A stretch of 15,722 bases of DNA, from positions 1 to 15,722 of the forward strand of contig VGKP01000017.1 in the NCBI GenBank assembly GCA_016866975.1, in the 5' to 3' direction. The notes under the pieces were generated by a model that saw only the letters and a list, made by a program, of their open reading frames with translations, did not search any database and was not told the origin of the DNA. Both the position numbers and the translations under genes were made by a program. Numbering within the stretch: position 1 is the stretch's first letter; each line of letters opens with the position of its first letter. This document shows, piece by piece, positions 1,467-12,114 of this stretch. The stretch comes from Candidatus Pacearchaeota archaeon. GTDB taxonomy: Archaea > Nanobdellota > Nanobdellia > Pacearchaeales > GW2011-AR1.

Positions 1467-1487
1467 CCTCTCCAGAATCTTATGCTT

Positions 1488-2081
1488 ATGAACGGATTAG
1501 TGAAAAAAGAAGATCTTATTTCCTTTGAAAAAGAAGTGGAGCAACTTTATATCGATAAGAAAATTCGATCCCCTGTGCACGCATCAGGAGGGAATGAGGA
1601 AGAGCTTGTTGCGATTTTCAAGAATATTCACCCTAAAGATTGGGTTTTTACAACGTATCGGAGCCATTATCATGCGCTGCTCAAGGGGATATCCCGGGAA
1701 TGGTTGCTCAAGGAAGTTCTTGAAAATCATAGCATCCATATTATGAGTAAGGAGCACAGGTTTGTGAGCTCATCTATCGTCGGAGGAACACTGCCCTCTG
1801 CGCTCGGCGTAGCATGGGCAATCAAAAGAAAAGAGGAAAAGCGGCACGTCTGGGTATTCTGTGGGGATATGGCTTCAGAGAGCGGGGTTTTTCATGAATG
1901 TGCCAAATATGCCCGGCGCAACAATCTCCCGATGACGTTTGTTGTCGAGGATAACGGCTGGAGTGTTGATACTCCAACGCAGAAAGTCTGGGGCGGTCAG
2001 GATTCAGGCCCCAACGTATTGAGGTATACTTATGAAAGGACGTATCCCCATTATGGATTCGGAGTCTGGGTGATGTTCTGA
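1488..2081 (+). CDS. Minimal TPP-dependent dehydrogenase E1 alpha-like subunit (PDH/2-oxoacid dehydrogenase family)
   Basis: Motifs 'SPVHASGGNE', 'TYRSHYHALLKG', 'SSIVGG', and TPP/Mg motif 'GDMASESG...VVEDN' (GDG-X24-27-N variant). About 197 aa. Start 1488 preferred from TATA spacing; 1482 is the alternative. Confidence 0.85.
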   Translation: MNGLVKKEDLISFEKEVEQLYIDKKIRSPVHASGGNEEELVAIFKNIHPKDWVFTTYRSHYHALLKGISREWLLKEVLENHSIHIMSKEHRFVSSSIVGGTLPSALGVAWAIKRKEEKRHVWVFCGDMASESGVFHECAKYARRNNLPMTFVVEDNGWSVDTPTQKVWGGQDSGPNVLRYTYERTYPHYGFGVWVMF

Positions 2082-2653
2082 TGGGCGATTATTTTGATGA
2101 ACTCAAGAAATCCATGCAATTTCTCGCGCAGGACATACGGGTTATTTTCGTGGGCCAAACCGTCGGATACAAAGGGACTGCTTTCTTTAAAACACTTGAA
2201 GGCATTTCAGAAACGCAACGCCTTGAGCTTCCTGTCTTTGAGGACGTGCAGATGGGGATGACCATTGGATTAAGCTTCGAAGGCTACATTCCTGTTTCTT
2301 TTTTCCCTCGCATGGACTTCATGGTATTAGGATTCAATCAGTTGGTCAATCATCTCGACAAGATGGAAGAGATGTCGTCAGGACAGTTTAAGCCCAAGAT
2401 TATCATTCGTACAGCCATCGGGAGTGTAAAGCCTCTATTTCCCGGGCCGCAGCATTGTCAAGATCATGTTGACGCGCTGAAGCTGATGCTGAAGAATGTT
2501 GATGTGATCAAGCTTACACGAAAAGAAGATGTGTTCCCTGCCTATCAAAAGGCTCTCACGAGCGAGAAGTCGACAATTATTGTGGAGCTTCCCGATCTTT
2601 ATCATGCAGATTCTTCAGAGGAATTTTCTGGGATTCCAGGATCAAAACCATGA
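2081..2653 (+). CDS. TPP-dependent E1 beta-like subunit, pyrimidine-binding domain only
   Basis: Motifs 'ELPVFEDVQMGMTIGLSFEG' (cofactor-activating Glu), 'DF...FNQLVN', 'GPQH'. 190 aa with no C-terminal domain. TGATG stop/start overlap with the alpha gene. Confidence 0.85.
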   Translation: MGDYFDELKKSMQFLAQDIRVIFVGQTVGYKGTAFFKTLEGISETQRLELPVFEDVQMGMTIGLSFEGYIPVSFFPRMDFMVLGFNQLVNHLDKMEEMSSGQFKPKIIIRTAIGSVKPLFPGPQHCQDHVDALKLMLKNVDVIKLTRKEDVFPAYQKALTSEKSTIIVELPDLYHADSSEEFSGIPGSKP

Positions 2654-3777
2654 GAGTTGAATTTGGTGACTTGCGCCTCGATGAAGCAGCAAAAGAGAAT
2701 CTGCTGGACTGTATAGCAAAAAACTGGATCTCGGGAGGGCCCAAAGTAAAGCAATTCGAGGAGGAATGGGGAAATCTCTTCGGGTACAAGCACAATTTTG
2801 CAGTATATTCTGGAACTGGGGGCGACATCGGAGCCTGTATGGCACTTTACGATCTCGGCGCGCAGCGCGGAGATGAAATTATCGCGCCAGCGCTCGCTTT
2901 TGCCGCCGTCGGAGAGGCAATTCTGCAGGCAGGGTTTAAGCCTGTATTTGTAGATGTGGAAAAGGAGACGCTAAATATCGATCCAAAGATCATTGAGCAG
3001 AAAATTACTCCACGTACGCGCGCAATTCTTGTTGCGCATACCATGGGAAAGCCGTGCGAGATGGATTCCATCATGGAAATAGCAAGGAAACACAACCTCA
3101 TCGTGATAGAGGATTCCTGCGAGGCTCATGGGGCAAAGTACAAGGGAAAATTTATCGGGAATTGGGGCGACATGGCTGTCTTTAGCTTCTATATCGCACA
3201 CCTCATCTGTTGCGGCGAGGGAGGGATGATTTCAACGAATAACGAACGCATTGCGCAGATTCTCTCCTCAGTGCGTTCCCACGGAAGAAAAGGAGGTCAG
3301 CTCTATTTTGATCATGAGAGACTCGGCTCCAACTTAAAGATGAATGACATGGAGGCCGCAGTTGGCCTATCAGAAGTTAAGAAGTTTTGGTGGACGTTCG
3401 ATACAAGAAAGAAGAACCTTATTTATTTGCTGTATAAGATGAAGGACTTGCAGAAATATGCCTATTTCAATCTAGAGGGCTCAAACGATGTAGTATGTGC
3501 ACATGGATTTACTGTGACTATGAAAGATCCAAAATATAACTGCGCAGCACTCTATAGGTTCTTGGAAGACAACTCTATAAAGTGTAAGAGAAATTTCGGA
3601 AGTATGCCTACTCAACATAAGGCATTTGCTTTCCTAGGCCATAAGCTCGGAGAATTTCCGGAATCAGAGTATATTGGAGATCACGGATTGCATTTCGGAG
3701 TGCATCAATTCTTGTCATTAGACGATCTGGATTACATCTCTGAAAAGATGCATGAATATTTTAAGAGATTTGAGTAA
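2650..3777 (+). CDS. DegT/DnrJ/EryC1/StrS-fold PLP/PMP enzyme, His-type: probable NDP-4-keto-6-deoxysugar C3-dehydratase (ColD-like)
   Basis: Family motifs 'WISGGPKVKQFE', 'IEDSCEAHGA', 'GEGGM'. The active-site segment SFYIAHLICCGEGG has His where aminotransferases have Lys (SFxxxKxxxxGEGG). ATGA overlap with the E1 beta stop. Confidence 0.85.
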   Translation: MRVEFGDLRLDEAAKENLLDCIAKNWISGGPKVKQFEEEWGNLFGYKHNFAVYSGTGGDIGACMALYDLGAQRGDEIIAPALAFAAVGEAILQAGFKPVFVDVEKETLNIDPKIIEQKITPRTRAILVAHTMGKPCEMDSIMEIARKHNLIVIEDSCEAHGAKYKGKFIGNWGDMAVFSFYIAHLICCGEGGMISTNNERIAQILSSVRSHGRKGGQLYFDHERLGSNLKMNDMEAAVGLSEVKKFWWTFDTRKKNLIYLLYKMKDLQKYAYFNLEGSNDVVCAHGFTVTMKDPKYNCAALYRFLEDNSIKCKRNFGSMPTQHKAFAFLGHKLGEFPESEYIGDHGLHFGVHQFLSLDDLDYISEKMHEYFKRFE

Positions 3778-3779
3778 GG

Positions 3780-5927
3780 TTAGGTCTTATGCCTATTTTG
3801 CCAGATTTGAGTTCCTCCCAATTCAAAATGGAACGGCATTATCTCGGCGCCAGCTTGCTCAAGGACATGTACAAGAGCATTTCTCCTCTTTAATGCCGTA
3901 AAGAAGAGCAGATAGCCTCCATTCCCCGCACCGAGAAGCCTGCCTCCTTCGGCACCGTTGCCCATGCCAAGTTCATAAAGCATGTTCACTCGCGCGGTAG
4001 ACGCGAGAGGAGATATTTTCTTTTTAGTCTCCCAGGATTCATGGAGTGTTTTTCCAAAGAGGTCAAGCCTATGCGTCAACAGAAAGTCTTTCGCTTCAAT
4101 GGCTATCTTTTTCATCTTTTGCAGGAGAGCTACGGTGTCATCAGTATTACTCTTAAAATTCTCTTCTTGCCTCGAATGCACATCACTAGATACATGAGAT
4201 GTGCCTACATAACACAAAACAAGGCGATGGTTAAGTTCTTGGATTACTTCTTCTTTCAGGCGGAGGGGATAAATGATGTTCTTTTCCTCATTAAACTCGA
4301 TAAAATTAAAGCCGCCAGTGACCGCAGCATACTGATCTTGCCATCCTCCCTTGATTTTGAGTTCTTCAAAGTGCGCTTTGTAGGCAAGTTCGGCAATTTT
4401 ATACGAGTCGTAGCTTGTTTCTTGCAGATGGTTGAGGAGACTGATAACGAGAACAGCAAGGCTCGCGCTGGATCCCAAGCCTCTCCCTGGAGGGATATCA
4501 TTATGAAGGTAAATCTCAAATCCGAAATCAGGTTTCATGACCTTGATTGCCGCCTTAACCATGTCAAGAGTACCATCGTATAAGAGTGCTTCAGCAGACC
4601 GTGCAACTATATCTCTACCTCGAGTAAGATCGGAATCGATAATAATCTTCTTATCGGCTCGCTTAACGATAGTAGCATGGCAATATTTGTCAATGGTTGC
4701 ATTGATGACTGCCCCTCCATATGTTCCAAAAAAATACGGGAGATCCGTGCCGCCACCGCCAAAGCTTATTCTCAAGGGAGATTTTCCACTGATAATAGGG
4801 AATGTCTCTCTTTTTAAGAGTTCAGTGCCGAAGACAATGTCCTTGATAATGCCCTTCTCATCAACAATCGGGAGATGCCTGATGCCCACCGACATGATAG
4901 AGGTGCGTTTTTCCTCGCTGTCCGTATGCTGAGCAGTGATAGGATTCACCACCATGGCGTGCGCAACCTGATCTGCGATATTTCCACCGCGTAAAATAAA
5001 TTCTTTGATGATTCGATCATTGATAATACCTTTGAGTTTTTTTTCAGAATCAGTGACGAGGAGGATATTGATGCCGCTCTTGCTGATTTTCTGCATCGCT
5101 TCACGTACAATAGCATGTTCTTGCAGAATCAAAGTATTTAATACATCCTCTTTGAATTTTTCATGGGTTTCAGGCCTGCCGATATCCATAAAATAACCGT
5201 CTTCAAGGTATCCAAACAAGTTTCTTTCGCGTGCAAGGATAGGGAAGATTTCCTTTTCAAGAGAGATTTTTGAGCCAGATGCAATGTACTGGAAGATGCG
5301 AGAATCAAGAACATAAATCCCTCTGTTGACAATGCCTGTTCCTACGCCTTCTTTTTCGCTGAATTGAGAAATTATATTGCCTTCAAGAACAACATTGCCG
5401 TAGTGGAGCGATTCTGAAGTTTTGAAGAGGCTGATAGTGAATTGATGCTCATGGCTTGAATGGAAGTTCAGAAGTTTTCTGATGTTGATATGAGAATAAG
5501 AATCGCCATTGAGGACAAGGAAAGGCCCGCCCCCAAGATATTTTTCCGCATTCTTGATAGCTCCTCCGGTTCCAAGAGGAGTTTCCTCTTCAGAATAAGT
5601 GATGTCAGTATTCCATCTCCTGCCATCACCAAAATAGGATTTTATCTTGTCTGAGAGATGATGGACTGCAAGGACGATTTCAGTAACACCCTGGTCACGC
5701 AGGAAACGGATTTGGTGTTCAAGGAAGGGTTTGCCCGCAAACAAAGCCATGGGCTTGGGAATTTCATCTCCTAGGACAGGCTTTAGGCGCGTACCGAATC
5801 CACCTGCAAGAATAAGTGCTTTTACAGGGTAGGGGAGGTCTTTCTTGGCTTCAATGACTTCTTCTTCCCCGAGGGAACGATACACGTCGTGCGCAGAAGT
5901 AATGGAGGTATTCATAGGATTAGGCAT
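3780..5927 (-). CDS. Triple fusion: sugar-1-phosphate nucleotidyltransferase (HddC/GDP-mannose pyrophosphorylase-like) + CBS pair + GHMP sugar kinase (HddA, heptose-7-phosphate kinase-like)
   Basis: N-terminal 'ALILAGGFGTRL...PKPM', 'EETPLGTGGA', 'NGD', 'MDIGRPE'. Central CBS pair ('GINILLVTD...LKGII', 'GIRHLPIVDEKG'). C-terminal 'PLRISFGGGGTD', 'PPGRGLGSSAS', 'GGWQDQYAA', 'GGRLLGAGNGG'. Start at 5927 (overlaps upstream stop) or 5915; 5960 is unlikely. Confidence 0.9.
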   Translation of the reverse strand: MPNPMNTSITSAHDVYRSLGEEEVIEAKKDLPYPVKALILAGGFGTRLKPVLGDEIPKPMALFAGKPFLEHQIRFLRDQGVTEIVLAVHHLSDKIKSYFGDGRRWNTDITYSEEETPLGTGGAIKNAEKYLGGGPFLVLNGDSYSHINIRKLLNFHSSHEHQFTISLFKTSESLHYGNVVLEGNIISQFSEKEGVGTGIVNRGIYVLDSRIFQYIASGSKISLEKEIFPILARERNLFGYLEDGYFMDIGRPETHEKFKEDVLNTLILQEHAIVREAMQKISKSGINILLVTDSEKKLKGIINDRIIKEFILRGGNIADQVAHAMVVNPITAQHTDSEEKRTSIMSVGIRHLPIVDEKGIIKDIVFGTELLKRETFPIISGKSPLRISFGGGGTDLPYFFGTYGGAVINATIDKYCHATIVKRADKKIIIDSDLTRGRDIVARSAEALLYDGTLDMVKAAIKVMKPDFGFEIYLHNDIPPGRGLGSSASLAVLVISLLNHLQETSYDSYKIAELAYKAHFEELKIKGGWQDQYAAVTGGFNFIEFNEEKNIIYPLRLKEEVIQELNHRLVLCYVGTSHVSSDVHSRQEENFKSNTDDTVALLQKMKKIAIEAKDFLLTHRLDLFGKTLHESWETKKKISPLASTARVNMLYELGMGNGAEGGRLLGAGNGGYLLFFTALKRRNALVHVLEQAGAEIMPFHFELGGTQIWQNRHKT

Positions 5928-6870
5928 TTTTGTAGGGGTCGTCCTTGAGAAGCAAGGCATACCCTCGCATCAATTCCTGAATGCCGTCTTCAAGCGAAAC
6001 AGCTGGCAGAAATCCGGTTGCCATAATCTTCTTGTTAGAAACAATGTAATTTCTTTTGTCAGGATCTTCTCCGATTTTCATGGGAATCATTGCAAATTTA
6101 GGAACGTATTTTTTGATGGTCTCTGCAAGTTCCATTTTAGAGAGATTGGCATCTTCGAGGCCAACATTATAAATCTGATTTTTCATACTGTCAAAGTTCA
6201 CAATGCAATGCTCAAAACACCGCGCAACATCCCGTATGTGGATGTAATTTCTTTTAAAATGCGCCTCATAAATCACAACATAGCCGTCGCGCAAGGCTTT
6301 CAGGACAAAATCATTGACAAGCAAATCAGTGCGCATACGTGGAGAGATACCGAAAACCGTTGCAAGCCTAAGGGTAATCACATCCTTTCCCGATTTTGCG
6401 GCAGCAAGCAGATAGCGCTCTGCATCAGATTTTGTTCGTCCATACAATGAAATGGGTTCAAGAGGAGTTTCTTCCGTACAGAAGACATCGCCTGTCTTTG
6501 TCCCGTAGCCGCTGTTGGTCGTGGGATATATGAGCTTTTGCCTCGAAGTGCGAAGCTCATTGATGAGCACAATTGCCTCATAATTAATAGAAACCGCATC
6601 AAGTGGCTTTGCATCGCAGGCAGGCATGCCAACAATTGCGGCAAGCGGGATGATGACATCAAATTCAGGGAGAATTTCCACAAGTAGCTCTTTATTTCTC
6701 GCATCCCCATAGATAAAATTGAAACGAGGATTGCTCGCATAATGAAGAAGAGACCGTTGCTTATAGCTGAGATTGTCAAGGCACGTTACATTAAATCCTT
6801 TTTCTAGGAGATATCCGGCAAGGAAGCTTCCAAGATATCCTGCACCTCCCGTAATCAGCACTTTTTGCAT
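5920..6870 (-). CDS. Extended SDR, Cj1427-like GDP-heptose (NDP-sugar) C4-dehydrogenase
   Basis: 'KVLITGGAGYLGS', 'IIPLAAIVG', 'IYPTTNSGYG', YxxxK 'LYGRTK', 'RLATVFGISPRMRTDLLVNDF', 'HFKRNYIHIRDV', 'IGEDPDKRNYIVSN'. These closely match Campylobacter jejuni Cj1427c as I recall it (not aligned computationally). Start moved to MQKVL at 6870. Confidence 0.8.
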   Translation of the reverse strand: MQKVLITGGAGYLGSFLAGYLLEKGFNVTCLDNLSYKQRSLLHYASNPRFNFIYGDARNKELLVEILPEFDVIIPLAAIVGMPACDAKPLDAVSINYEAIVLINELRTSRQKLIYPTTNSGYGTKTGDVFCTEETPLEPISLYGRTKSDAERYLLAAAKSGKDVITLRLATVFGISPRMRTDLLVNDFVLKALRDGYVVIYEAHFKRNYIHIRDVARCFEHCIVNFDSMKNQIYNVGLEDANLSKMELAETIKKYVPKFAMIPMKIGEDPDKRNYIVSNKKIMATGFLPAVSLEDGIQELMRGYALLLKDDPYKNA

Positions 6871-6891
6871 TACACCATCTGCAAAGAGGGT

Positions 6892-6899
6892 TTTATAAA
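6892..6899 (-). promoter_or_regulatory. Archaeal-type TATA box TTTATAAA for the Cj1427-like/fusion operon
   Basis: Minus-strand TTTATAAA (6899..6892); last base 22 nt before the ATG at 6870. Confidence 0.7.
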
Positions 6900-6902
6900 G
6901 AA

Positions 6903-6967
6903 AGTGGTGGCGGAGTGATGAAGATATAATGGTGGGCTGAAGTAATTTCTCAACGAAAGCCACCACT
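6903..6967. other. Intergenic stem-loop closed by a 9-bp inverted repeat, containing GTGATGA and CTGA on the + strand
   Basis: AGTGGTGGC (6903-6911) is the reverse complement of GCCACCACT (6959-6967). Box-C-like GTGATGA at 6915-6921 and box-D-like CTGA at 6937-6940. Confidence 0.4.
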
Positions 6968-7039
6968 ACGCCAAAGAAGTACGTCCCCGACGACCCTCGT
7001 AGAACATAAAACATCATAATTGAAAATTCTCGAGTGTGC

Positions 7040-7061
7040 TCAAGGACAAGTATGTCCTTGA
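7040..7061. repeat. Perfect 9-bp inverted repeat with 4-nt loop (hairpin or regulator operator)
   Basis: TCAAGGACA-AGTA-TGTCCTTGA, 30 nt downstream of the minus-strand stop at 7092. Confidence 0.6.
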
Positions 7062-7091
7062 CATTGGAGGGTTATTCAAAGCTTTGTATAC

Positions 7092-8171
7092 TTAAAACCC
7101 ATCGGAAGTCAGCATATACCTCAAGAAAGGGTCTGCTTCAGAATATTTTTTTTCAGGTATATTGGGCACATCATAATCTGCCTCGATAATGACGGGCAGA
7201 TTAGAGTTTTGAGCATGGGTTGCTATAGTTTTAAATTGTTCTCTTGAGACAATTCCTTCAGGGCCAACACCCACACTACCCCATTTCTTTATGAGTGGCC
7301 CATCAAGATAGATCCCCATACCTGTTGCATTGCCGATATGATAAGCTCTTCCCAATGGGGTATAACTCTCCAGAGAAGGGTGTCTTTTAAAATAATCCGG
7401 CCAGGTCTTAATTCGTTCCATCTCAAAGAGCATTCTCTCATCTTCTCCTGCATCGTTTTTACCCATAAAATTAGCACATTGCGAACCTGCCCAATGAGCA
7501 GTATCTAAGATAAGATTTCCTTTAGAAAGAGAAGTTAATGATCCAATATCATTAAAAGGATGGACAAAAATGTAAGGTGTCTTATCTTGCAATTTAGGAT
7601 GGGGTACAAGATGAGCTGTAACTCCATGCTCAATAGCAACGCCAATACCCTTTTAGCGGGCAAGACTTTCTAACGCAGAGAAGCGGGAGGCACATCGGTC
7701 ATAGAGCGCATCTCTCTGAGAATTAAATTGATCAGGAGTCAATATAACGGGGCTTTTCATTCTAAGTGCATTTCTTGAGACAAACAGGCCCACATTAACA
7801 CTCACCGTAACAGGGTATTGCGAAGAGTCCTCTGAACGAAGAGCCGCGACCTGATTGATCACAAGATCTATGAGATCCTTCCCATATTCAGTGTCTTGCT
7901 CTGCGCTAAACGCAAGGCAATGCCTGGATTGAAAGGTGGATTGCGCATGAACAATAGGAAGGCGATATTTCGCCTGGTTAACTTTTTGTTTTTCTAAATT
8001 TTCTTCTCTCATTGCAGGAGGTATAAAAAAGAGAAAAGCTCCCACTTGGAGCGGTCGTCCTATGGATTCGCCATATTTTTCAATGAGTTCTTTTGCTTCA
8101 AGAAATGCCTGAATTTCAGATTCCTTGTGCAACATGACGGGAAGGCCAACTGTAAGTTTTTTATCGCTCAT
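7092..8171 (-). pseudogene. Xylose-isomerase-like/AP-endonuclease-2 TIM-barrel protein (sugar isomerase/epimerase family) interrupted by one in-frame TAA at 7655-7653
   Basis: ORFs 7653..8171 and 7092..7592 are in the same frame. The 20 codons between them are open: ...LESLAR*KGIGVAIEHGVTAHLVPHPK-LQDK.... The joined protein (about 359 aa) has the metal-ligand pattern 'GVAIEH', 'LILDTAH', 'YHIGN', 'PVIIE'. Confidence 0.7.
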
Positions 8172-8192
8172 TTTTTTTCATCCAAAAATGAG

Positions 8193-8200
8193 TATATAAA
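8193..8200 (-). promoter_or_regulatory. Archaeal-type TATA box TTTATATA for the TIM-barrel gene
   Basis: Minus-strand TTTATATA preceded by A-rich ATAAATA; last base 22 nt before the ATG at 8171. Confidence 0.75.
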
Positions 8201-8246
8201 TATTTATGGTCTATAGTGGCACGGTAATCCTATCAAACGATGGCTA

Positions 8247-8360
8247 TCAATTATCTAATGAAGATTGCCTTCTCAAACATTCTGCTACCTGCCTCTCACT
8301 CCGCGCTCTGCATGCTTCGTATAACTCCTTTCCTTTTATGAAAAGCGTATATCCTGCCAT
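8247..8360 (-). CDS. Candidate 37-aa small protein MAGYTLFIKGKELYEACRARSERQVAECLRRQSSLDN
   Basis: Hand-translated; absent from the ORF track. Fills most of the 8172-8420 gap, is co-oriented with its neighbours, is followed by TGA TAG, and has TGTAAATA (8389..8382) ending 22 nt before its ATG. Confidence 0.4.
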   Translation of the reverse strand: MAGYTLFIKGKELYEACRARSERQVAECLRRQSSLDN

Positions 8361-8420
8361 GAGATAAAAGAATATGAAGGTTATTTACATTGTTATTTAT
8401 CCCAAGGTATAGGTTCTGAT

Positions 8421-10145
8421 TTACAAGACGTTCTTCTTATACCACTCCATCGTTCTGCGAATACCTTCATCAAGCGATATCGAAGGCTGCCAGCCAAGTT
8501 CTTGCTTTGCCTTGTTGCAATTCAAAGCAAGTGTTGTTTTAATTGTCGGCTTAGAAGTATCGTATGCAATGGCAAGTTGCCCTCCTGCGGCATCCACGAT
8601 TTTTTTGACAAGCTCACGGATAGAGACAGAGGAGCCGTATCCTATATTATATAGGCCGAATTGGGACTGTTGCTTCTCCAGTGCAAGAATCACAGCGTCA
8701 ACAAGGTCAGAGACATACAACAAATCCCTCTCTTCTTCTCCTGTTCCCCAGACAATAATCTTCCCATCTTTCGGTTGCAGTACTTTCGTCATGGTTGCTC
8801 CAAAGACATGGGACTTCTCAAGGTCAAATTTGTCATGGGGCCCGTAGATGTTAGAATGCCTGAGCACAGTGTATCGTGTCTCTCCAATGCGCGAATAGAA
8901 TTCACACATCTTTTCAATATAGACTTTGGTCCAGCCGACTCCAAAATAGCTCTTAAACAGTTCTTTGTTAGCATCAAAATCACTCTCTAGCACAGGCCGC
9001 TCAGAAGGCTGATACATGACGCTGCAGCTGAAAAAAACAACTTGCTTAACTTTGCAGTCATGGGCTGCTCTGAAGATTAGCGAATTCATAATCGCATTGT
9101 CCGTGACATGAAAATACGGGCGCGTGACAATATCCTTTGCCCCTGAAGTCGTGGCAGCCGCCTGAATGATGACATCCATGCCAGATACAACACATCTTAC
9201 TTCTTCTTCGTTGCACAAATCAGCTTTCTTCAACTGCAATCCAGGCAATGAAAAGGGCTGGCTGTGATGATACGTACCATAAAGTTCAAGATTCTCCTTT
9301 CCCGCAAGCCGTTCAGCAATATTTCTCCCAATAAATCCTGAGACACCACAAATAAGCACTTTCGTTTTCTGGGGAGATAATTTCTGCTGCTTAAATTCAA
9401 GAATCACTTCCTTAGAGGATTTATTCATAAAAGGAAACATGTTCAGAAGTTTGGCGTGGGCAATGTTCCCAGTAGCATAACGGTACTGACCGAATGTTAC
9501 ATTTTTCCCGAGAAGTTCTGCAACTTCTTTGAGAGCGATATTTCTTGTGGCAACTACATTATACACGCCCACTATATTCTGGCTGAGTGCCTGCGTGACA
9601 ATCTTGAGAAGGTCAGAGTGAAGCACATAGTTAAACTCTGCATCAGGCGAGAGTGTCAATGTAGGGAATGTATCTTCAATGATTTTGAGCAGGCTGTTTT
9701 TTCTCGAATATGGCCCGAGAAGGGCGGAGCAGCGCAGGATAAGTGCCTGAGGTGATAGTTTTCGGACAAGAGCTTCAGAAAGGAATTTTGTCAGAGGATA
9801 GATGCAGGCAAGTGCATCAGCAGAAATATTTTCCGCTTCGTCGTGGATTTTGCCATCAGTAGGATACACATCAATCGTAGAAATAAAGATGAATTTTTCA
9901 TGCGGAATTTCCAAAAGGTGCTGGGTAAGAAGAAGATTATCCTGCACATATGCCGCGACTTCTTCGGAAGAAGAGGGCTTTTTTGAATTAAATGCGCAAT
10001 GGATAATCGTGGCAACACCTCTTTCTCTGAGCTGCTGCCATTCTGCATCAGAAGTTTCACGCGATATACCTATAACATTGAGCTTCTCTGCAAGATAACG
10101 CCCTAATCCACTCTTGCTTCCTGTGACAATGATTTTTCCTTCCAT
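8421..10145 (-). CDS. Tandem fusion of two NAD(P)-dependent epimerase/dehydratase (SDR) domains; C-terminal domain GDP-fucose-synthase-like
   Basis: Two Rossmann motifs: 'IIVTGSKSGLG' (with YxxxK 'YPLTK') and 'KVLICGVSGFIG' at about 9360 (with 'RHSNIYGPHDKFD', 'SHV', 'VWGTGEEERDLLYVSD'). TAATG overlap with the upstream gene. Confidence 0.85.
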   Translation of the reverse strand: MEGKIIVTGSKSGLGRYLAEKLNVIGISRETSDAEWQQLRERGVATIIHCAFNSKKPSSSEEVAAYVQDNLLLTQHLLEIPHEKFIFISTIDVYPTDGKIHDEAENISADALACIYPLTKFLSEALVRKLSPQALILRCSALLGPYSRKNSLLKIIEDTFPTLTLSPDAEFNYVLHSDLLKIVTQALSQNIVGVYNVVATRNIALKEVAELLGKNVTFGQYRYATGNIAHAKLLNMFPFMNKSSKEVILEFKQQKLSPQKTKVLICGVSGFIGRNIAERLAGKENLELYGTYHHSQPFSLPGLQLKKADLCNEEEVRCVVSGMDVIIQAAATTSGAKDIVTRPYFHVTDNAIMNSLIFRAAHDCKVKQVVFFSCSVMYQPSERPVLESDFDANKELFKSYFGVGWTKVYIEKMCEFYSRIGETRYTVLRHSNIYGPHDKFDLEKSHVFGATMTKVLQPKDGKIIVWGTGEEERDLLYVSDLVDAVILALEKQQSQFGLYNIGYGSSVSIRELVKKIVDAAGGQLAIAYDTSKPTIKTTLALNCNKAKQELGWQPSISLDEGIRRTMEWYKKNVL

Positions 10146-11137
10146 TAGACAAATTTTTTTTCCGTGAACACATTGTATCTCTTTCCTACAATCTCTTTAT
10201 TCTCCTTATACCACTGCATGACTTCCTTGATGCCCTCCTCTAAGGAGACTGTAGGCTCCCACCCCAGAGCCTTTGCTTTGCTGATATCCATGACCCTCTT
10301 CCTGTCTCCTGAAGGCTTTGACGTGTCCCACACAATCTTTGGTTTCTGTTCAAGGTTGTTAACGATAATATCAACAATCTGCTTGACTGTATATCCCTGC
10401 CCACTGCCAAAATTAATCGGCGAGGGATGGCATTTTTCAAGTGCAAACAGCATACCTCGCGCAACATCTTTTGCATGAATAAAGTCGCGTACCGGGGTTC
10501 CATCACCCCATACAACCAAAGGGTCTTCACCGCTCATCGCTCTCGCGATAAGGGATGGGATGACCATTGCGTTTGCAGGGTCAAAGTTGTCATACGGTCC
10601 GTAGGTATTGGCAGGCCTCACGACAGCCAGATTCATCGAGCCATATTCTTTGCGGTAGGCTTCCACCTGAAGCTCACCCATACGTTTCGCCCAACCTGCA
10701 AATTTGTCATTTTCAGAGGGAAATGTTTTCCAAACATCATCTTCGTGGAATACTTCTGCAGGAGCATAAACTCCAATCGTGCTCGTATAGAGGATACGTT
10801 CAGCTCCTGATTGGCGTGCTGCTTCGAGCATGTTAGTGTTAAACAGAATCGTGGGAACAAAAAAGCTCGCAGGTTTCTCAGCAGTCATTTTCGGAGAGCC
10901 TTTGATGCCTGCAAGATGAAAAACAATATCCATGCCTTTGCAGGCAAGCAAGCAATTGTTGATGTCCATAAGGTTGACTTTCATGAATTCTGCTTGTGGA
11001 TGTGCGCGCGAAGGGTCATCGAGAGAGGCGATGCGGACGCTCGCGCCTTGCTCAATAAGAAGCTGGACAAGTTGCCTTCCAATCATCCCCGTTCCCCCCG
11101 TAACAAGTATTTTCTTGCCTTGATAAAAGTTCATCAT
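10145..11137 (-). CDS. GDP-L-fucose-synthase-like extended SDR (NDP-sugar epimerase/reductase)
   Basis: 'KILVTGGTGMIG', 'VFHLAG', 'RPANTYGPYDNFD', 'VWGDGTPVRDFIHAKD', 'WDTSKPSG'. Start MMNF at 11137 (ATGA overlap with upstream TGA; GAGGT SD-like sequence upstream). Confidence 0.85.
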   Translation of the reverse strand: MMNFYQGKKILVTGGTGMIGRQLVQLLIEQGASVRIASLDDPSRAHPQAEFMKVNLMDINNCLLACKGMDIVFHLAGIKGSPKMTAEKPASFFVPTILFNTNMLEAARQSGAERILYTSTIGVYAPAEVFHEDDVWKTFPSENDKFAGWAKRMGELQVEAYRKEYGSMNLAVVRPANTYGPYDNFDPANAMVIPSLIARAMSGEDPLVVWGDGTPVRDFIHAKDVARGMLFALEKCHPSPINFGSGQGYTVKQIVDIIVNNLEQKPKIVWDTSKPSGDRKRVMDISKAKALGWEPTVSLEEGIKEVMQWYKENKEIVGKRYNVFTEKKFV

Positions 11138-12114
11138 GAGTGTACCTCTCTCGCAACGGCTAGCCTGCAATGATCAAGAAGGTATTTAATACTTTCTTCA
11201 AAAGAATACTTTGGCTTCCATCCTGTTTCTCTTTCAAATTTGGAAGTATCTGGTATCTGCAGAGTCACATCCACAGGTCGCAATAGCGTAAGTTCGACTC
11301 TCGAAGGGATAGTGCATTGTGCAAGTTTCTTCAAAACATCAAGGAATTGCCCGACCGTGATGACAGTATTGCCCCCAATATTATAGATTTCTCCAGGTCT
11401 TCCTTTCGTCATGGCAATCCAGTAGGATTCCATAGCATCACGGACATCAATGAGTGTCCGCGTGGAGTCGAGATTGCCATGGAGCAATTCTTTTTGCAGA
11501 CCAGCTTCAATGCGCGCAACCTGCATTGCAAAGGACGTTGCAAAGAGATCGGTTCTTCGCGGATTGAGGTACGCAAACATACGAGTGCGGATAACGGGAA
11601 TGCCATAACTCTTGAAATAAGTGAGTCCCAGGGAATCCTGTGCCATCTTTGACACTGCATAAGGATTGACAGGCTGTACGGGACAGTCTTCAGTGATAGG
11701 CACGTGCCGAGGGTCAACTTGCCCATACAGTTCAGAAGTGCTGCAGATTTGAACGAGAGGTTTGGTGCCTGAAAGGCGTATAGCTTCAAAAAGATTTGCA
11801 GTGCCCATAATATTATTATGCAAGACAGAAAGCGGATTAACAAAAGATGCGCGGACATTGGCGTGGGAAGCAATATGAAAAATAGCATCAGGTTGAACTT
11901 TGCGAATGACTTCAAAAACAGCAGAGAAGTCAGTAAGGTCGCATTCATGGAGATTTATTTTATCTTTAATCAAAGAGATATTCTGGTGCGTGGATGTGCT
12001 ATGCCAACGTGTGATTCCATGGATATCTACATCCGGATGGTTCTGTGCAATATATTCTGCAAGATAACTTCCGCCGGATCCGGTAACGCCAGTAATCAGT
12101 GCCTTTTTTATCAT
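11134..12114 (-). CDS. GDP-sugar 4,6-dehydratase (Gmd/DmhA/Rmd family; resembles GDP-heptose 4,6-dehydratase DmhA)
   Basis: 'ALITGVTGSGGSYLA', catalytic 'STSELYG' (Thr/Glu) and 'PYAVSK'. Segments 'G..RW', 'PRRTDLF', 'QVARIEAG', 'GNLDSTRTLIDVRDA', 'LRPVD' resemble DmhA as recalled. Start MIKKA at 12114. Confidence 0.8.
   Translation of the reverse strand: MIKKALITGVTGSGGSYLAEYIAQNHPDVDIHGITRWHSTSTHQNISLIKDKINLHECDLTDFSAVFEVIRKVQPDAIFHIASHANVRASFVNPLSVLHNNIMGTANLFEAIRLSGTKPLVQICSTSELYGQVDPRHVPITEDCPVQPVNPYAVSKMAQDSLGLTYFKSYGIPVIRTRMFAYLNPRRTDLFATSFAMQVARIEAGLQKELLHGNLDSTRTLIDVRDAMESYWIAMTKGRPGEIYNIGGNTVITVGQFLDVLKKLAQCTIPSRVELTLLRPVDVTLQIPDTSKFERETGWKPKYSFEESIKYLLDHCRLAVAREVHS

What the first reader, a model, noticed from the sequence alone, without database searches (positions are those of the whole stretch)
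1488..12114. Candidate undescribed pathway to a C-branched, 3,6-dideoxy GDP-(hept)ose in a probable archaeon
Seen in sequence: a heptose-type kinase/nucleotidyltransferase fusion, a DmhA/Gmd-like 4,6-dehydratase, a His-type C3-dehydratase, a Cj1427-like C4-dehydrogenase, three further SDR domains and a TPP E1 alpha/beta pair, flanked by a flippase, a GT and a carbamoyltransferase. Established: yersiniose A is made by 4,6-dehydration, C3-deoxygenation, TPP-dependent transfer of a pyruvate-derived C2 unit to the 4-keto group (YerE, ALS-like, CDP-linked) and reduction (YerF). C. jejuni makes 3,6-dideoxy-heptoses from GDP-heptose with a PLP C3-dehydratase. Inference: this locus combines both logics, with a GDP-linked and possibly heptose scaffold and a PDH-E1-like brancher, giving a 4-C-acetyl/hydroxyethyl-3,6-dideoxy sugar. 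I know of no such sugar or route described in archaea.
Basis: partly seen in the sequence, partly recalled or inferred. Interest (0 to 1): 0.85.

Follow-up and report, generated by a model that had tools for sequence, protein, structure and literature searches.

The report
Sugar-branching locus with mini-E1 pair
A small archaeon carries a gene cluster for a heavily modified GDP-linked sugar in which a stripped-down thiamine enzyme pair sits next to the enzymes that make a 4-keto, 3-deoxy sugar; the same pairing recurs in hundreds of bacterial and archaeal genomes, which points to an undescribed way of adding a carbon branch to surface sugars.

Summary
The contig belongs to a 0.8 Mb DPANN-type archaeon.

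The two thiamine (TPP) genes encode a minimal E1 alpha/beta pair of 199 and 190 aa. Both keep the cofactor motifs. Both lack the parts that serve a dehydrogenase complex, and the genome has no E2 or lipoyl domain.

The pair belongs to a distinct family found in at least 501 species genomes, mostly bacterial. Within 9 kb it sits with a Cj1427-like C4-dehydrogenase or a DmhA-like 4,6-dehydratase, a GHMP kinase, a GDP-type nucleotidyltransferase, Fcl-like reductases and radical SAM enzymes. Of 46 neighbouring DegT genes, 44 carry His at the Schiff-base position, as C3-dehydratases do. Natural fusions exist: ColD-like + E1 alpha + E1 beta in one chain, SDR + E1 alpha, and B12 radical SAM + E1 alpha.

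Best reading (about 0.55): a ThDP carboligase adds an acyl branch to C4 of a GDP-4-keto-3-deoxy sugar, probably a heptose.

Caveats:
- No chemistry is shown.
- E1-type branchers are already known genetically in actinomycete antibiotic pathways.
- gmhA and gmhB were not found in this genome.
- The module is not specific to archaea.

The earlier scan notes I drew on all concern this same window; none was on other DNA.

The parts
1..1434 (+). Wzx/MOP-type flippase, 5' end cut off by the contig start
   Evidence: PF01943 E 2e-18, with the match starting at profile position 44. The ORF is open at base 1.
1482..2081 (+). Minimal E1 alpha-like ThDP subunit (PP domain only, 199 aa)
   Evidence: PF00676 positions 7-171 of 300. 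Aligns to human PDH E1 alpha residues 49-212. The GDM...EDN cofactor motif is conserved in the family. Relatives are 188-230 aa. 175 clusters at 50% identity score E<=1e-30.
2081..2653 (+). Minimal E1 beta-like subunit (Pyr domain only, 190 aa)
   Evidence: PDH E1 beta model positions 18-177 of 327. Aligns to E1 beta chains 1IK6 and 1UM9_B. E54 (PVFE), H91 and Q124-H125 are invariant in 59 of 59 family members. Overlaps the E1 alpha stop as TGATG.
2650..3777 (+). ColD-like PMP-dependent C3-dehydratase (His-type DegT)
   Evidence: PF01041 E 2e-92. His184 aligns with the Lys of perosamine synthetase and of 7B0M, and with ColD His188 via L079. ATGA overlap with E1 beta. 66% identical to the ColD domain of the ColD-E1 alpha-E1 beta fusion P0147.
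3780..5960 (-). Nucleotidyltransferase - CBS pair - GHMP kinase fusion (sugar-1-P formation and GDP activation)
   Evidence: NTP_transferase at residues 47-271, CBS at 278-373, GHMP at 389-721. HddA model 244 bits, mannose-1-P guanylyltransferase model 168 bits, HddC model 151 bits, all below the equivalog cut-offs. Separate kinase and transferase genes take its place in bacterial loci.
5920..7017 (-). Cj1427-like GDP-heptose C4-dehydrogenase (probable true start near 6870)
   Evidence: E 5e-105 and 354 bits to PDB 6VO6/6VO8 over residues 51-356; YGRTK is present. Its orthologues, 45-57% identical, lie near E1 pairs in 44 of 80 loci.
7092..8171 (-). Gene for a divergent xylose-isomerase-like TIM-barrel protein, interrupted by an in-frame TAA at 7653-7655
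   Evidence: Two ORFs of 172 and 166 aa align end to end with unbroken relatives of 355-362 aa, which have E, S or K at the stop position. There is no Pfam hit. A model of relative P0122 (pLDDT 74.6) matches sugar epimerase/isomerase TIM barrels. The ESM Atlas gives the same lead.
8421..10145 (-). Di-SDR fusion: RmlD-like N-domain plus a non-canonical Fcl-like C-domain
   Evidence: Pfam and NCBIfam hits. The C-domain has SYFGVGWTK, with Tyr at K-7 instead of YxxxK, and this is conserved in its orthologues. C-domain orthologues stand alone in L019, L025 and L057. The N-domain has no counterpart near other E1 pairs.
10145..11170 (-). Non-canonical Fcl-like SDR (candidate side-chain or C4 reductase)
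   Evidence: GDP-fucose synthase model 163 bits. FAGWAK replaces YxxxK, and there is no Cys at the GFS Cys109 position. Orthologues, 45-57% identical, lie next to E1 pairs, for example in L021 as SDR - E1 alpha - E1 beta - GMD-like - GmhA.
11134..12114 (-). DmhA/Gmd-like GDP-sugar 4,6-dehydratase
   Evidence: PF16363 E 3e-69. Best solved relative is 7US5, a GDP-D-glycero-D-manno-heptose 4,6-dehydratase, E 4e-55; STSE and YAVSK are present. The ATG start is at 12114.
12185..13839 (+). Glycosyltransferase (Glyco_trans_1_2 family, about 551 aa)
   Evidence: PF13524 E 2e-32. 37% identical to the L001 orthologue from residue 130 of the long ORF; the ATG is at 12185. The same family lies near E1 pairs in 9 archaeal loci.
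13836..15575 (-). NodU/CmcH-type carbamoyltransferase
   Evidence: PF02543 and PF16861. A 69% identical copy is present in the Pacearchaeota locus L004.

Best explanation
The locus makes and exports a modified GDP-linked sugar, probably a heptose.

Steps shown by homology:
- A kinase/nucleotidyltransferase fusion activates the sugar as a GDP-sugar.
- A Cj1427-like C4-dehydrogenase and/or a DmhA-like 4,6-dehydratase creates the 4-keto group.
- A ColD-type, PMP-dependent, His-type enzyme removes the 3-hydroxyl, giving a GDP-4-keto-3-deoxy or 3,6-dideoxy sugar.

Steps that are inferred:
- The minimal E1 alpha/beta pair (PP plus Pyr domains only, no E2-docking parts) decarboxylates a 2-oxo acid on ThDP. 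Pyruvate is the default donor.
- It then adds the resulting acyl carbanion to the C4 carbonyl. This is what YerE does for yersiniose and what the E1-like pairs AviB1/B2 and Pau11/12 do in antibiotic sugars.
- The non-canonical Fcl-like SDRs then reduce the new side-chain ketone or set the stereochemistry.
- The GT, flippase and carbamoyltransferase install, decorate and export the glycan.
For: Identities of the sugar enzymes:
- SDR 5920-7017 matches 6VO6 at E 5e-105.
- The dehydratase's best solved relative is the GDP-heptose 4,6-dehydratase 7US5.
- His184 lies at the ColD His188 position.
- HddA, HddC and guanylyltransferase models give the best matches for the fusion.
- In vitro, Cj1427 plus a C. 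jejuni C3-dehydratase yield GDP-4-keto-3-deoxy-heptose (PMC10680097).

The E1 pair:
- The cofactor motifs are conserved: GDM...N in alpha, and E54 invariant in 59 of 59 beta subunits.
- A model of a fused family member has the PP+Pyr arrangement. The beta half superposes on E1 beta chains at 2.0 A over about 179 residues, and the whole model matches transketolase at TM 0.64. There is no third domain.
- The genome has no E2 or lipoyl domain.

Context in 80 homologous loci from at least 501 species genomes:
- Among the 40 loci with at least 6 kb on both sides: E1 beta 39, kinase 31, Cj1427-like 28, ColD-like 27, both of the last two 25. Four more have a GMD-like dehydratase instead.
- 44 of 46 nearby DegT genes are His-type.
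- The commonest order is Fcl-like - E1 alpha - E1 beta - ColD-like.
- A minimal operon in L021 reads SDR - E1 alpha - E1 beta - GMD-like - GmhA.
- AKR or classical SDR ketoreductase genes lie directly upstream of E1 alpha in some loci. This parallels the Pau7 side-chain ketoreductase (PMC4753412).

Fusions:
- ColD-like(His) + E1 alpha + E1 beta (P0147).
- Fcl-like SDR + E1 alpha (P0125).

Precedent for ThDP branching of NDP-4-keto-deoxy sugars: PMC9306805, PMC4802897, PMC10338323.
Against: - No chemistry is shown, and the acceptor, the donor and the product are all inferred.
- Radical SAM enzymes are as frequent a partner of the pair as the sugar enzymes: 31 of 40 full loci, plus rSAM-E1 alpha fusions. 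The pair may therefore serve them rather than the keto sugar. However, this genome has no such rSAM.
- Six of the 40 full loci have neither Cj1427-like, ColD-like nor GMD-like genes within 9 kb.
- gmhA and gmhB were not found in this genome.
- The two Fcl-like SDRs lack a canonical YxxxK, so their reductase role is uncertain.
- One locus gene, the TIM barrel, carries a premature stop.
- I could not compare the pair directly with AviB1/B2-type sequences.
Confidence: 0.55

Rival explanations
1. The E1 pair acts on the nucleotide sugar but performs a different ThDP reaction from C4 acyl addition. Examples: it could use the 4-keto sugar as the donor (C-C cleavage and re-ligation, epimerisation or ring rearrangement), or transfer an acyl group to an oxygen.
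For: The same context and fusion evidence ties the pair to NDP-keto-sugar enzymes. In loci with only a GMD-like dehydratase and no ColD-like gene (L016, L019, L021, L023), the substrate keeps its 3-OH, which a transketolase-like cleavage would need.
Against: The strongest partner is the C3-dehydratase, which removes the hydroxyl that transketolase-type cleavage requires. All characterised ThDP enzymes in NDP-sugar pathways use the 4-keto sugar as the acceptor (PMC9306805). The alpha subunit resembles 2-oxo-acid E1 far more than transketolase: 107 against 24 bits.
Confidence: 0.12
2. The E1 pair is a pyruvate-driven partner of the B12 radical SAM enzymes. It would supply them with electrons or with a ThDP-bound substrate, and its link to the sugar genes would be indirect.
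For: Radical SAM genes lie within 9 kb in 48 of 80 loci and 31 of 40 full loci. Fusions exist: B12-rSAM + E1 alpha (P0127, P0130) and E1 alpha-beta + rSAM-SPASM (P0155). Loci without sugar 4-keto enzymes still have rSAM genes next to the pair (L007, L009, L017).
Against: The window has no rSAM, and a tblastn of the whole genome with the L079 B12-rSAM found nothing. Nine full loci have the pair with Cj1427-like or ColD-like genes but no rSAM. The ColD-E1 alpha-E1 beta fusion has no rSAM part. No Fe-S motif was seen in the pair.
Confidence: 0.1
3. The pair is a small 2-oxo-acid decarboxylase that handles the by-products or co-substrates of its neighbours. ColD-type enzymes release 2-oxoglutarate, and Cj1427 consumes it. 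On this reading the pair never touches the sugar.
For: ColD-type dehydratases make 2-oxoglutarate and ammonia from glutamate, and Cj1427 needs 2-oxoglutarate (PMC10680097). The pair is tightly linked, and in one case fused, to ColD-like genes.
Against: The pair also occurs with only a GMD-like dehydratase and Fcl-like SDRs, where no 2-oxoglutarate is made or used (L019, L021, L023). Destroying Cj1427's co-substrate would work against the pathway. C. jejuni runs the same two enzymes without such a pair.
Confidence: 0.08
4. The pair acts before activation, as a mini transketolase or DXS-like enzyme that builds the sugar skeleton. The TIM-barrel isomerase, the kinase and the transferase then convert that sugar to the GDP-sugar.
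For: gmhA and gmhB are missing here. Xylose-isomerase-like TIM-barrel genes sit in this locus and in the nearest relative L001. The fold is that of the transketolase superfamily.
Against: The genome already has a split transketolase on contig 9. Many bacterial carriers have gmhA/gmhB beside the pair. Loci such as L019 have the pair with a GMD-like dehydratase but no kinase or transferase. The fusions are to late-acting enzymes, not to the kinase or isomerase.
Confidence: 0.06

Closest known systems
Yersiniose A pathway (CDP-glucose 4,6-dehydratase, E1/E3 C3-deoxygenation, YerE, YerF) and its relatives ErwE/MyGE
   Same: The logic matches: an NDP-sugar, a 4-keto former, a His-type PMP C3-dehydratase, a ThDP enzyme, then a ketoreductase. 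The acceptor is a 4-keto-3-deoxy sugar (PMC9306805).
   Different: YerE is a single-chain, acetolactate-synthase-like ThDP flavoenzyme acting on CDP-sugars. Here the ThDP enzyme is a two-subunit E1-type PP/Pyr pair. The sugar enzymes are of the GDP type. The dehydratase is ColD-like, and no E3 reductase gene is in the window.
E1 alpha/beta-like two-carbon branchers of actinomycete antibiotic sugars (AviB1/AviB2, Pau11/Pau12 = Plm8/Plm9, EvdU5/EvdS3)
   Same: These are PDH-E1-like heterodimers without E2/E3, encoded in deoxysugar clusters. They are assigned to adding a pyruvate-derived C2 unit to an NDP-4-keto sugar (PMC4802897, PMC4753412, PMC10338323).
   Different: Those act in dTDP/UDP secondary-metabolite pathways. 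The family here is a minimal form of about 195 + 190 aa lacking the C-terminal parts of both subunits. It sits in GDP-heptose-type surface-glycan loci of archaea and many bacterial phyla. The sequence relationship between the two groups was not tested.
Campylobacter jejuni capsular heptose modification (HddA/HddC, Cj1427, DmhA, HS:5 C3-dehydratase, epimerases, C4-reductases)
   Same: There are close homologues of Cj1427 (354 bits to 6VO6) and of the GDP-heptose 4,6-dehydratase (7US5), plus HddA/HddC-like activation and a PLP/PMP C3-dehydratase.
   Different: No ThDP enzyme is part of the C. jejuni pathways; thiamin occurs 0 times in PMC10680097. Here the kinase and transferase are fused through CBS domains, gmhA/gmhB were not found, and the Fcl-like reductases are non-canonical.
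GDP-colitose pathway (ColE, ColB/Gmd, ColD, ColC)
   Same: Both have GDP-sugar 4,6-dehydration, then a His-type PMP dehydratase, then an Fcl-like enzyme. The Nitrospira-type DegT gene beside the E1 pair has ColD as its best solved relative, E 7e-54.
   Different: Colitose synthesis has no ThDP step, no kinase and no C4-dehydrogenase.
Heterotetrameric 2-oxo-acid dehydrogenase E1 (PDH/BCKDH E1 alpha2 beta2)
   Same: The PP and Pyr domains, the Mg-ThDP motif and the cofactor-activating Glu are shared.
   Different: About 130 C-terminal residues of alpha and the whole C-terminal domain of beta are missing. There are no E2, E3 or lipoyl genes in the loci or in the genome.

Membership tests
2-oxo-acid dehydrogenase E1 (alpha2 beta2 type) | PP domain with a Mg-ThDP binding motif (GDG...N) | tested here: met
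   GDM(x26)EDN is present. G128, M130 and N158 are invariant and D129 is nearly invariant in 20 family members. The region aligns to human E1 alpha 49-212.
2-oxo-acid dehydrogenase E1 (alpha2 beta2 type) | Pyr domain with the cofactor-activating Glu | tested here: met
   The Glu of PVFE aligns with the Glu of the P-x-x-E motif in 1UM9_B and 1IK6. E54 is invariant in 59 of 59 members.
2-oxo-acid dehydrogenase E1 (alpha2 beta2 type) | Full-length subunits: the alpha C-terminal region and the beta C-terminal (E2-binding) domain | tested here: not met
   Alpha covers only model positions 16-181 of 315. Beta covers 18-177 of 327. Family members are 188-230 aa. The fused model has two domains only.
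2-oxo-acid dehydrogenase E1 (alpha2 beta2 type) | Works with E2 (lipoyl acyltransferase) and E3 | tested here: not met
   The 89%-complete genome has no PF00198 and no PF00364. No such family appears among the conserved neighbours in 80 loci.
YerE-type sugar-branching ThDP enzymes | Single-chain acetolactate-synthase-like fold (TPP_enzyme N/M/C domains) | tested here: not met
   The best models are E1_dh and PDH E1 alpha/beta. There is only a weak partial TPP_enzyme_C match.
E1-like sugar branchers (AviB1/B2, Pau11/12) | An E1 alpha/beta-like pair in an NDP-sugar cluster with a 4-keto former and no E2/E3 | tested here: met
E1-like sugar branchers (AviB1/B2, Pau11/12) | Sequence kinship with the characterised pairs | not tested
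E1-like sugar branchers (AviB1/B2, Pau11/12) | Transfer of a pyruvate-derived C2 unit to C4 of the keto sugar | not testable with these tools
   This needs an enzyme assay.
ColD/E1(AscC)-type PMP-dependent 3-dehydratases | DegT fold with His in place of the Schiff-base Lys | tested here: met
   PF01041 E 2e-92. His184 aligns with the Lys of 7B0M and 3BN1, and with ColD His188 through L079.
ColD/E1(AscC)-type PMP-dependent 3-dehydratases | ColD subtype: no Fe-S insert and no E3 reductase partner | tested here: inconclusive
   The protein is 375 aa against 437 aa for AscC, and it aligns to AscC only over residues 20-213. No reductase gene is in the window. The Cys motif was not examined column by column.
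Cj1427 GDP-heptose C4-dehydrogenase | Close sequence kinship and an SDR YxxxK | tested here: met
   354 bits, E 5e-105 to 6VO6/6VO8 over residues 51-356; YGRTK aligns with YGIDK. That 6VO6 is Cj1427 rests on my own knowledge; the PDB name given by the tool is 'Putative sugar-nucleotide epimerase/dehydratease'.
Cj1427 GDP-heptose C4-dehydrogenase | Ping-pong use of 2-oxoglutarate to reoxidise bound NADH | not testable with these tools
   This is a biochemical property (PMC10680097).
HddA / HddC (GDP-heptose activation) | Score above the NCBIfam equivalog cut-off | tested here: not met
   HddA scores 244 bits against a cut-off of 600. HddC scores 151 against 300. They are the best or near-best models, but the fusion is not an equivalog.
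GDP-heptose pathway as a whole | GmhA isomerase and GmhB phosphatase present | tested here: not met
   No SIS_2 or gmhA match and only weak HAD hits in the own genome, which is 89% complete. GmhA-like genes occur in 17 and GmhB-like genes in 13 of the 80 related loci.
GDP-L-fucose synthase (Fcl/GFS) | Ser-Tyr-Lys triad (YxxxK) and the epimerase Cys | tested here: not met
   SDR 10145-11170 has FAGWAK and TSTIGVY. The di-SDR C-domain has YFGVGWTK. Canonical GSSC...PYAxSK is seen only in the Nitrospira-type neighbours.
Xylose-isomerase-like TIM barrel (PF01261) | Fold and family match | tested here: inconclusive
   There is no Pfam hit. A model of relative P0122 matches family members at TM 0.43-0.60, probability 1.00. 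The Atlas lead scores 0.95.

The most novel reading that the evidence does not exclude
The minimal E1 pair and the ColD-type dehydratase form one catalytic unit. The dehydratase's two products, the 4-keto-3-deoxy GDP-sugar and the 2-oxo acid released from its amino donor, are both passed to the ThDP pair. The branch would then come from the amino donor: C2 from alanine via pyruvate, or a C4 succinic-semialdehyde unit from glutamate via 2-oxoglutarate. In most bacterial carriers a B12 radical SAM enzyme would then alkylate the branch further. This would define a widespread, unrecognised class of C-branched higher sugars on the surfaces of DPANN archaea, CPR bacteria, Nitrospira, Verrucomicrobia and Pelagibacter.
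Probability: 0.15. Interest if true: 0.85.

Novelty: new variant of a known kind. Interest (0 to 1): 0.7.

Why it matters
ThDP-dependent branching of nucleotide sugars is known from one biochemically studied enzyme type (YerE and relatives) and from genetic work on E1-like pairs in a few antibiotic clusters.

This locus belongs to a compact, conserved family of half-size E1 pairs. The family comprises 175 clusters at 50% identity and occurs in at least 501 species genomes. It is wired, and sometimes fused, to GDP-heptose 4-keto and 3-deoxy enzymes and to B12 radical SAM enzymes. The carriers include abundant but poorly known lineages such as Pelagibacter, Nitrospira, Verrucomicrobia, CPR bacteria and DPANN archaea.

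If the inferred reaction holds, three things follow. It predicts an unknown class of branched deoxy-heptoses in environmental cell surfaces. It supplies a very small ThDP carboligase scaffold for biocatalysis. And it gives a use to the Cj1427 plus C3-dehydratase product, which so far has only been made in vitro.

The prediction can be tested directly with enzymes that already express well in the C. jejuni system.

Tried and rejected
Tools and papers that were unavailable:
I rebuilt gene neighbourhoods from the search for related loci plus my own ORF calling, clustering and tblastn.
I sent an unbroken relative instead and did not send the read-through to any other external tool.
- PMC544256 (AviB1/B2) and PMC7509852 (Cj1427 structure) are not held. 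A search for '6VO6' together with 'Cj1427' found nothing, so that identity is marked as my own knowledge.

Searches that led nowhere:
- Pfam and NCBIfam gave nothing for the two half-ORFs at 7092-8171, even at E 10.
- Literature searches combining Cj1427 or GDP-heptose with thiamine found no description of this module.

Ideas considered and rejected:
- A truncated or misassembled PDH E1. Rejected because the short length is the family norm.
- A phosphonate pathway (ThDP decarboxylase + nucleotidyltransferase + B12-rSAM). Rejected because no PEP-mutase-like family appears among the conserved neighbours I annotated, and because the alpha subunit is E1-type, not the acetolactate-synthase-like type of ThDP enzyme that, to my knowledge, phosphonopyruvate decarboxylase belongs to.
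- A dedicated transketolase for heptose supply. Weakened by the split transketolase on contig 9.
- TAA recoding for the split gene. Not supported: relatives have E, S or K at that position, so a point mutation or a sequencing error is simpler.

Full report
**What is there.** The window is the whole of contig 17 of a 0.8 Mb, 89%-complete genome. Its SSU rRNA scores 1309 bits with the archaeal model and 1002 bits with the bacterial one. The nearest homologous loci are labelled Nanoarchaeota and Woesearchaeota. The host is therefore a DPANN-type archaeon.

ORF listing and Pfam/NCBIfam scans give this gene order:
- a flippase cut by the contig start (1-1434, +);
- E1 alpha-like (1482-2081, +);
- E1 beta-like (2081-2653, +);
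- a DegT-family protein (2650-3777, +);
- a nucleotidyltransferase-CBS-GHMP kinase fusion (3780-5960, -);
- an SDR (5920-7017, -);
- two short ORFs without family hits (7092-8171, -);
- a two-SDR fusion (8421-10145, -);
- an Fcl-like SDR (10145-11170, -);
- a GDP-mannose-dehydratase-family protein (11134-12114, -);
- a glycosyltransferase whose real start is the ATG at 12185;
- a carbamoyltransferase (13836-15575, -).

E1 alpha, E1 beta and DegT overlap as TGATG and ATGA.

**The sugar enzymes.**
- The SDR at 5920-7017 matches PDB 6VO6/6VO8 at E 5e-105 (354 bits) across the whole chain, with the YxxxK motif in place. [quoted passage not shown]
- The dehydratase's best solved relative is a GDP-heptose 4,6-dehydratase (7US5, E 4e-55), and its STSE and YxxxK motifs are intact.
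- The DegT protein has His184 where perosamine synthetase and another sugar aminotransferase have the Schiff-base lysine. Through the Nitrospira homologue this His aligns with ColD His188, the residue changed in the deposited ColD mutant chain.
- The fusion protein is best matched by the HddA kinase model (244 bits), a mannose-1-phosphate guanylyltransferase model (168 bits) and the HddC model (151 bits). All are below the equivalog cut-offs.
[quoted passage not shown] It also shows that the 4,6-dehydratase route gives the 3,6-dideoxy-4-keto sugar (PMC10680097).

The locus can therefore plausibly make either keto sugar.

**The thiamine pair.**
- E1 alpha (199 aa) covers only the first half of the E1 alpha models: positions 16-181 of 315 in TIGR03182, corresponding to human E1 alpha residues 49-212. 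It keeps a GDM...EDN cofactor motif.
- E1 beta (190 aa) covers only the pyrimidine-binding domain, positions 18-177 of 327. Its PVFE glutamate aligns with the Glu of the P-x-x-E motif in solved E1 beta chains. That glutamate is invariant in 59 of 59 family members, together with H91 and Q124-H125.
- The short length is not an accident. The 120 best relatives are 188-230 aa long and 54-80% identical. An exhaustive profile search finds 175 clusters at 50% identity with E<=1e-30, well separated from ordinary E1.
- About 40 relatives are single-chain alpha-beta fusions of 380-416 aa. A model of one (pLDDT 79, pTM 0.81) has the beta half superposing on E1 beta chains at 2.0 A over about 179 residues. 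The two-domain arrangement matches transketolase at TM 0.64, with no third domain.
- The host genome has no E2 catalytic domain and no lipoyl domain.

The pair therefore keeps the chemistry of ThDP activation and has lost everything that serves a dehydrogenase complex.

I examined 80 loci with up to 10 kb on each side. They come from DPANN archaea, CPR bacteria, Nitrospira, Verrucomicrobia, Pelagibacteraceae, SAR116, Burkholderiales, Dehalococcoidia, Elusimicrobia and others.

I used tblastn with reference proteins, and independent ORF clustering with Pfam annotation. Among the 40 loci with at least 6 kb on both sides:

| Neighbour of the E1 pair | Loci (of 40) |
|---|---|
| E1 beta | 39 |
| GHMP kinase | 31 |
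| Cj1427-like SDR | 28 |
| ColD-like DegT | 27 |
| Both Cj1427-like and ColD-like | 25 |
| GMD/DmhA-like dehydratase instead | 4 more |

- GmhA-like (SIS) genes occur in 17 and GmhB-like (HAD) genes in 13 of the 80 loci. RmlC-like epimerases, GT2, ABC exporters and flippases also occur. These are glycan loci, and the GmhA/GmhB genes argue for a heptose.
- No E2 or E3 family was found among the recurrent neighbours.
- Of 46 DegT-family ORFs near E1 pairs, 44 have His and only 2 have Lys at the Schiff-base column.
- The commonest immediate neighbours are an Fcl-like SDR upstream and a ColD-like gene downstream.
- A Pelagibacteraceae locus shows a minimal operon: Fcl-like SDR - E1 alpha - E1 beta - GMD-like - GmhA.

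The refutation criterion (E1 pairs mostly with E2/E3, or outside glycan loci) is not met.

**Fusions.** A search for longer relatives found:
- P0147 (788 aa, five member sequences): a ColD-like domain 66% identical to the window's, with FSFYVAH, followed by E1 alpha and E1 beta in one chain;
- P0125: an Fcl-like SDR fused to E1 alpha;
- P0127 and P0130: a B12-binding radical SAM enzyme fused to E1 alpha;
- P0155: E1 alpha-beta fused to a SPASM radical SAM domain.

These fusions tie the pair to late, nucleotide-sugar-level steps rather than to precursor supply.

**How it most likely works.** The logic parallels yersiniose: an NDP-sugar, 4-keto formation, PMP-dependent C3-deoxygenation, ThDP-dependent addition of a pyruvate-derived unit to C4, then ketoreduction (PMC9306805). 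E1 alpha/beta-like pairs, rather than YerE-like enzymes, are already assigned to the same step in the paulomycin, avilamycin and everninomicin sugars (PMC4802897, PMC4753412, PMC10338323).

I therefore read the minimal pair as a ThDP carboligase. It would decarboxylate a 2-oxo acid and add the acyl carbanion to C4 of the GDP-4-keto-3-deoxy or 3,6-dideoxy sugar. This step is inferred, not shown.

Candidate reducers of the new side-chain ketone are the two non-canonical Fcl-like SDRs.
- The 341-aa protein and its orthologues have [F/Y][A/P]GWAK instead of YxxxK.
- The di-SDR C-domain family has a conserved Tyr at K-7.
- Canonical GSSC...PYAxSK Fcl enzymes occur in the Nitrospira-type loci.
- In some CPR loci an aldo-keto reductase lies directly upstream of E1 alpha. 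This recalls Pau7, the AKR that reduces the C4 acetyl branch of paulomycose.

The donor acid is unknown. ColD-type enzymes release a 2-oxo acid from their amino donor at each turnover. That makes the ColD-E1 fusion suggestive of a coupled supply, but this is speculation.

**What does not fit neatly.**
- Radical SAM enzymes, mostly B12-binding, are as constant a partner as the sugar enzymes: 48 of 80 loci and 31 of 40 full loci, with Pfam checks. Three of the six full loci that lack any 4-keto former still have rSAM genes next to the pair. The window and its genome have none, so whatever the pair does here does not need them. In other lineages the two may act in sequence on the same branch.
- gmhA and gmhB were not found in this genome, although a split transketolase that could supply sedoheptulose 7-phosphate is present.
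- The two unannotated ORFs at 7092-8171 are one gene broken by an in-frame TAA. Unbroken relatives of 355-362 aa have E, S or K at that position. A model of one relative matches xylose-isomerase-like TIM barrels such as ketose 3-epimerases and the 3-keto-glucoside 4-epimerase YcjR. The closest relative locus, L001, has a different PF01261 TIM barrel directly after its DegT. Such an isomerase might replace GmhA, or act on a keto sugar. I could not decide between these, and the gene may be inactive here.
- The E1 pair is patchy among relatives: 5 of 16 genomes of the same genus and none of 44 other relatives searched. This is what one expects of a mobile glycan module.

**Comparison and novelty.**
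- The thing works like the yersiniose and paulomycose branching systems.
- It is not a member of the YerE family. It fails the membership tests for a complex-forming E1, because it lacks the C-terminal parts, E2 and E3. Its kinship to AviB1/B2-type pairs could not be tested.
- The sugar-side enzymes are close to the C. jejuni heptose enzymes, a system in which no ThDP step is described.
- I found no paper describing this module.
- I rate it a new variant of a known kind: a half-size E1-type ThDP enzyme family coupled to GDP-heptose 4-keto and 3-deoxy chemistry. It is widespread in uncultured bacteria and in some DPANN archaea.
- Confidence that the locus makes a modified GDP-sugar through 4-keto and 3-deoxy intermediates is high. 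Confidence that the pair adds a C-branch at C4 is about 0.55.

Noticed in passing
window 7092-8171 (-), stop at 7653-7655: One gene for a rare, divergent xylose-isomerase-like TIM-barrel protein is split by an in-frame TAA. Only three unbroken relatives (355-362 aa) were found among 5.8 billion proteins, and they have E, S or K at that position.
   Followed up: yes
proteins P0147, P0125, P0127, P0130, P0155: Natural fusions of the minimal E1 subunits exist: with a ColD-like dehydratase (triple fusion), with an Fcl-like SDR, with B12-binding radical SAM enzymes and with a SPASM radical SAM domain. There are also about 40 plain alpha-beta fusions.
   Followed up: partly
loci L079:6408-7964, L007:11198-15759, L017:9654-11096 and others: B12-binding radical SAM genes lie within 9 kb of the E1 pair in 48 of 80 loci, sometimes several in a row. 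They are absent from the window and its genome. Their role relative to the pair is unexplained.
   Followed up: partly
window 8421-10145 and 10145-11170; L021, L025, L019, L057: Two paralogous Fcl-like SDR families lack YxxxK: [F/Y][A/P]GWAK, and Y at K-7 in Y[FH]GV..TK. The change is conserved in orthologues next to E1 pairs, so it is a family trait and not decay.
   Followed up: partly
L001:5663-6649: The closest relative's locus has a PF01261 xylose-isomerase-like TIM-barrel gene directly after its His-type DegT. It is not detectably homologous to the window's split gene.
   Followed up: partly
L019:11132-11903, L004:11001-11760, L016:11720-12094: A small cupin ORF, followed in L019 and L004 by a NUDIX ORF, sits between E1 beta and the GMD-like dehydratase in archaeal loci.
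   Followed up: no
own genome, contig C11 about 1900-7700: A second nucleotide-sugar cluster is present, with an RmlC-like epimerase, a DegT-family gene and several SDRs.
   Followed up: no
own genome C9:14161-16016 (locus L081:662-2517): A split transketolase (299 + 319 aa) is present, so sedoheptulose 7-phosphate could be made even though gmhA was not found.
   Followed up: partly
The genome search, relatives: The E1 pair occurs in 5 of 16 genomes of the same genus and in none of 44 other relatives searched. This patchy spread is typical of a mobile glycan module.
   Followed up: no
L025:7072-8265: A Pelagibacteraceae locus has a nucleotidyltransferase fused to a HAD phosphatase (HddC-GmhB-like). 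This is a different fusion solution from the window's transferase-CBS-kinase.
   Followed up: no
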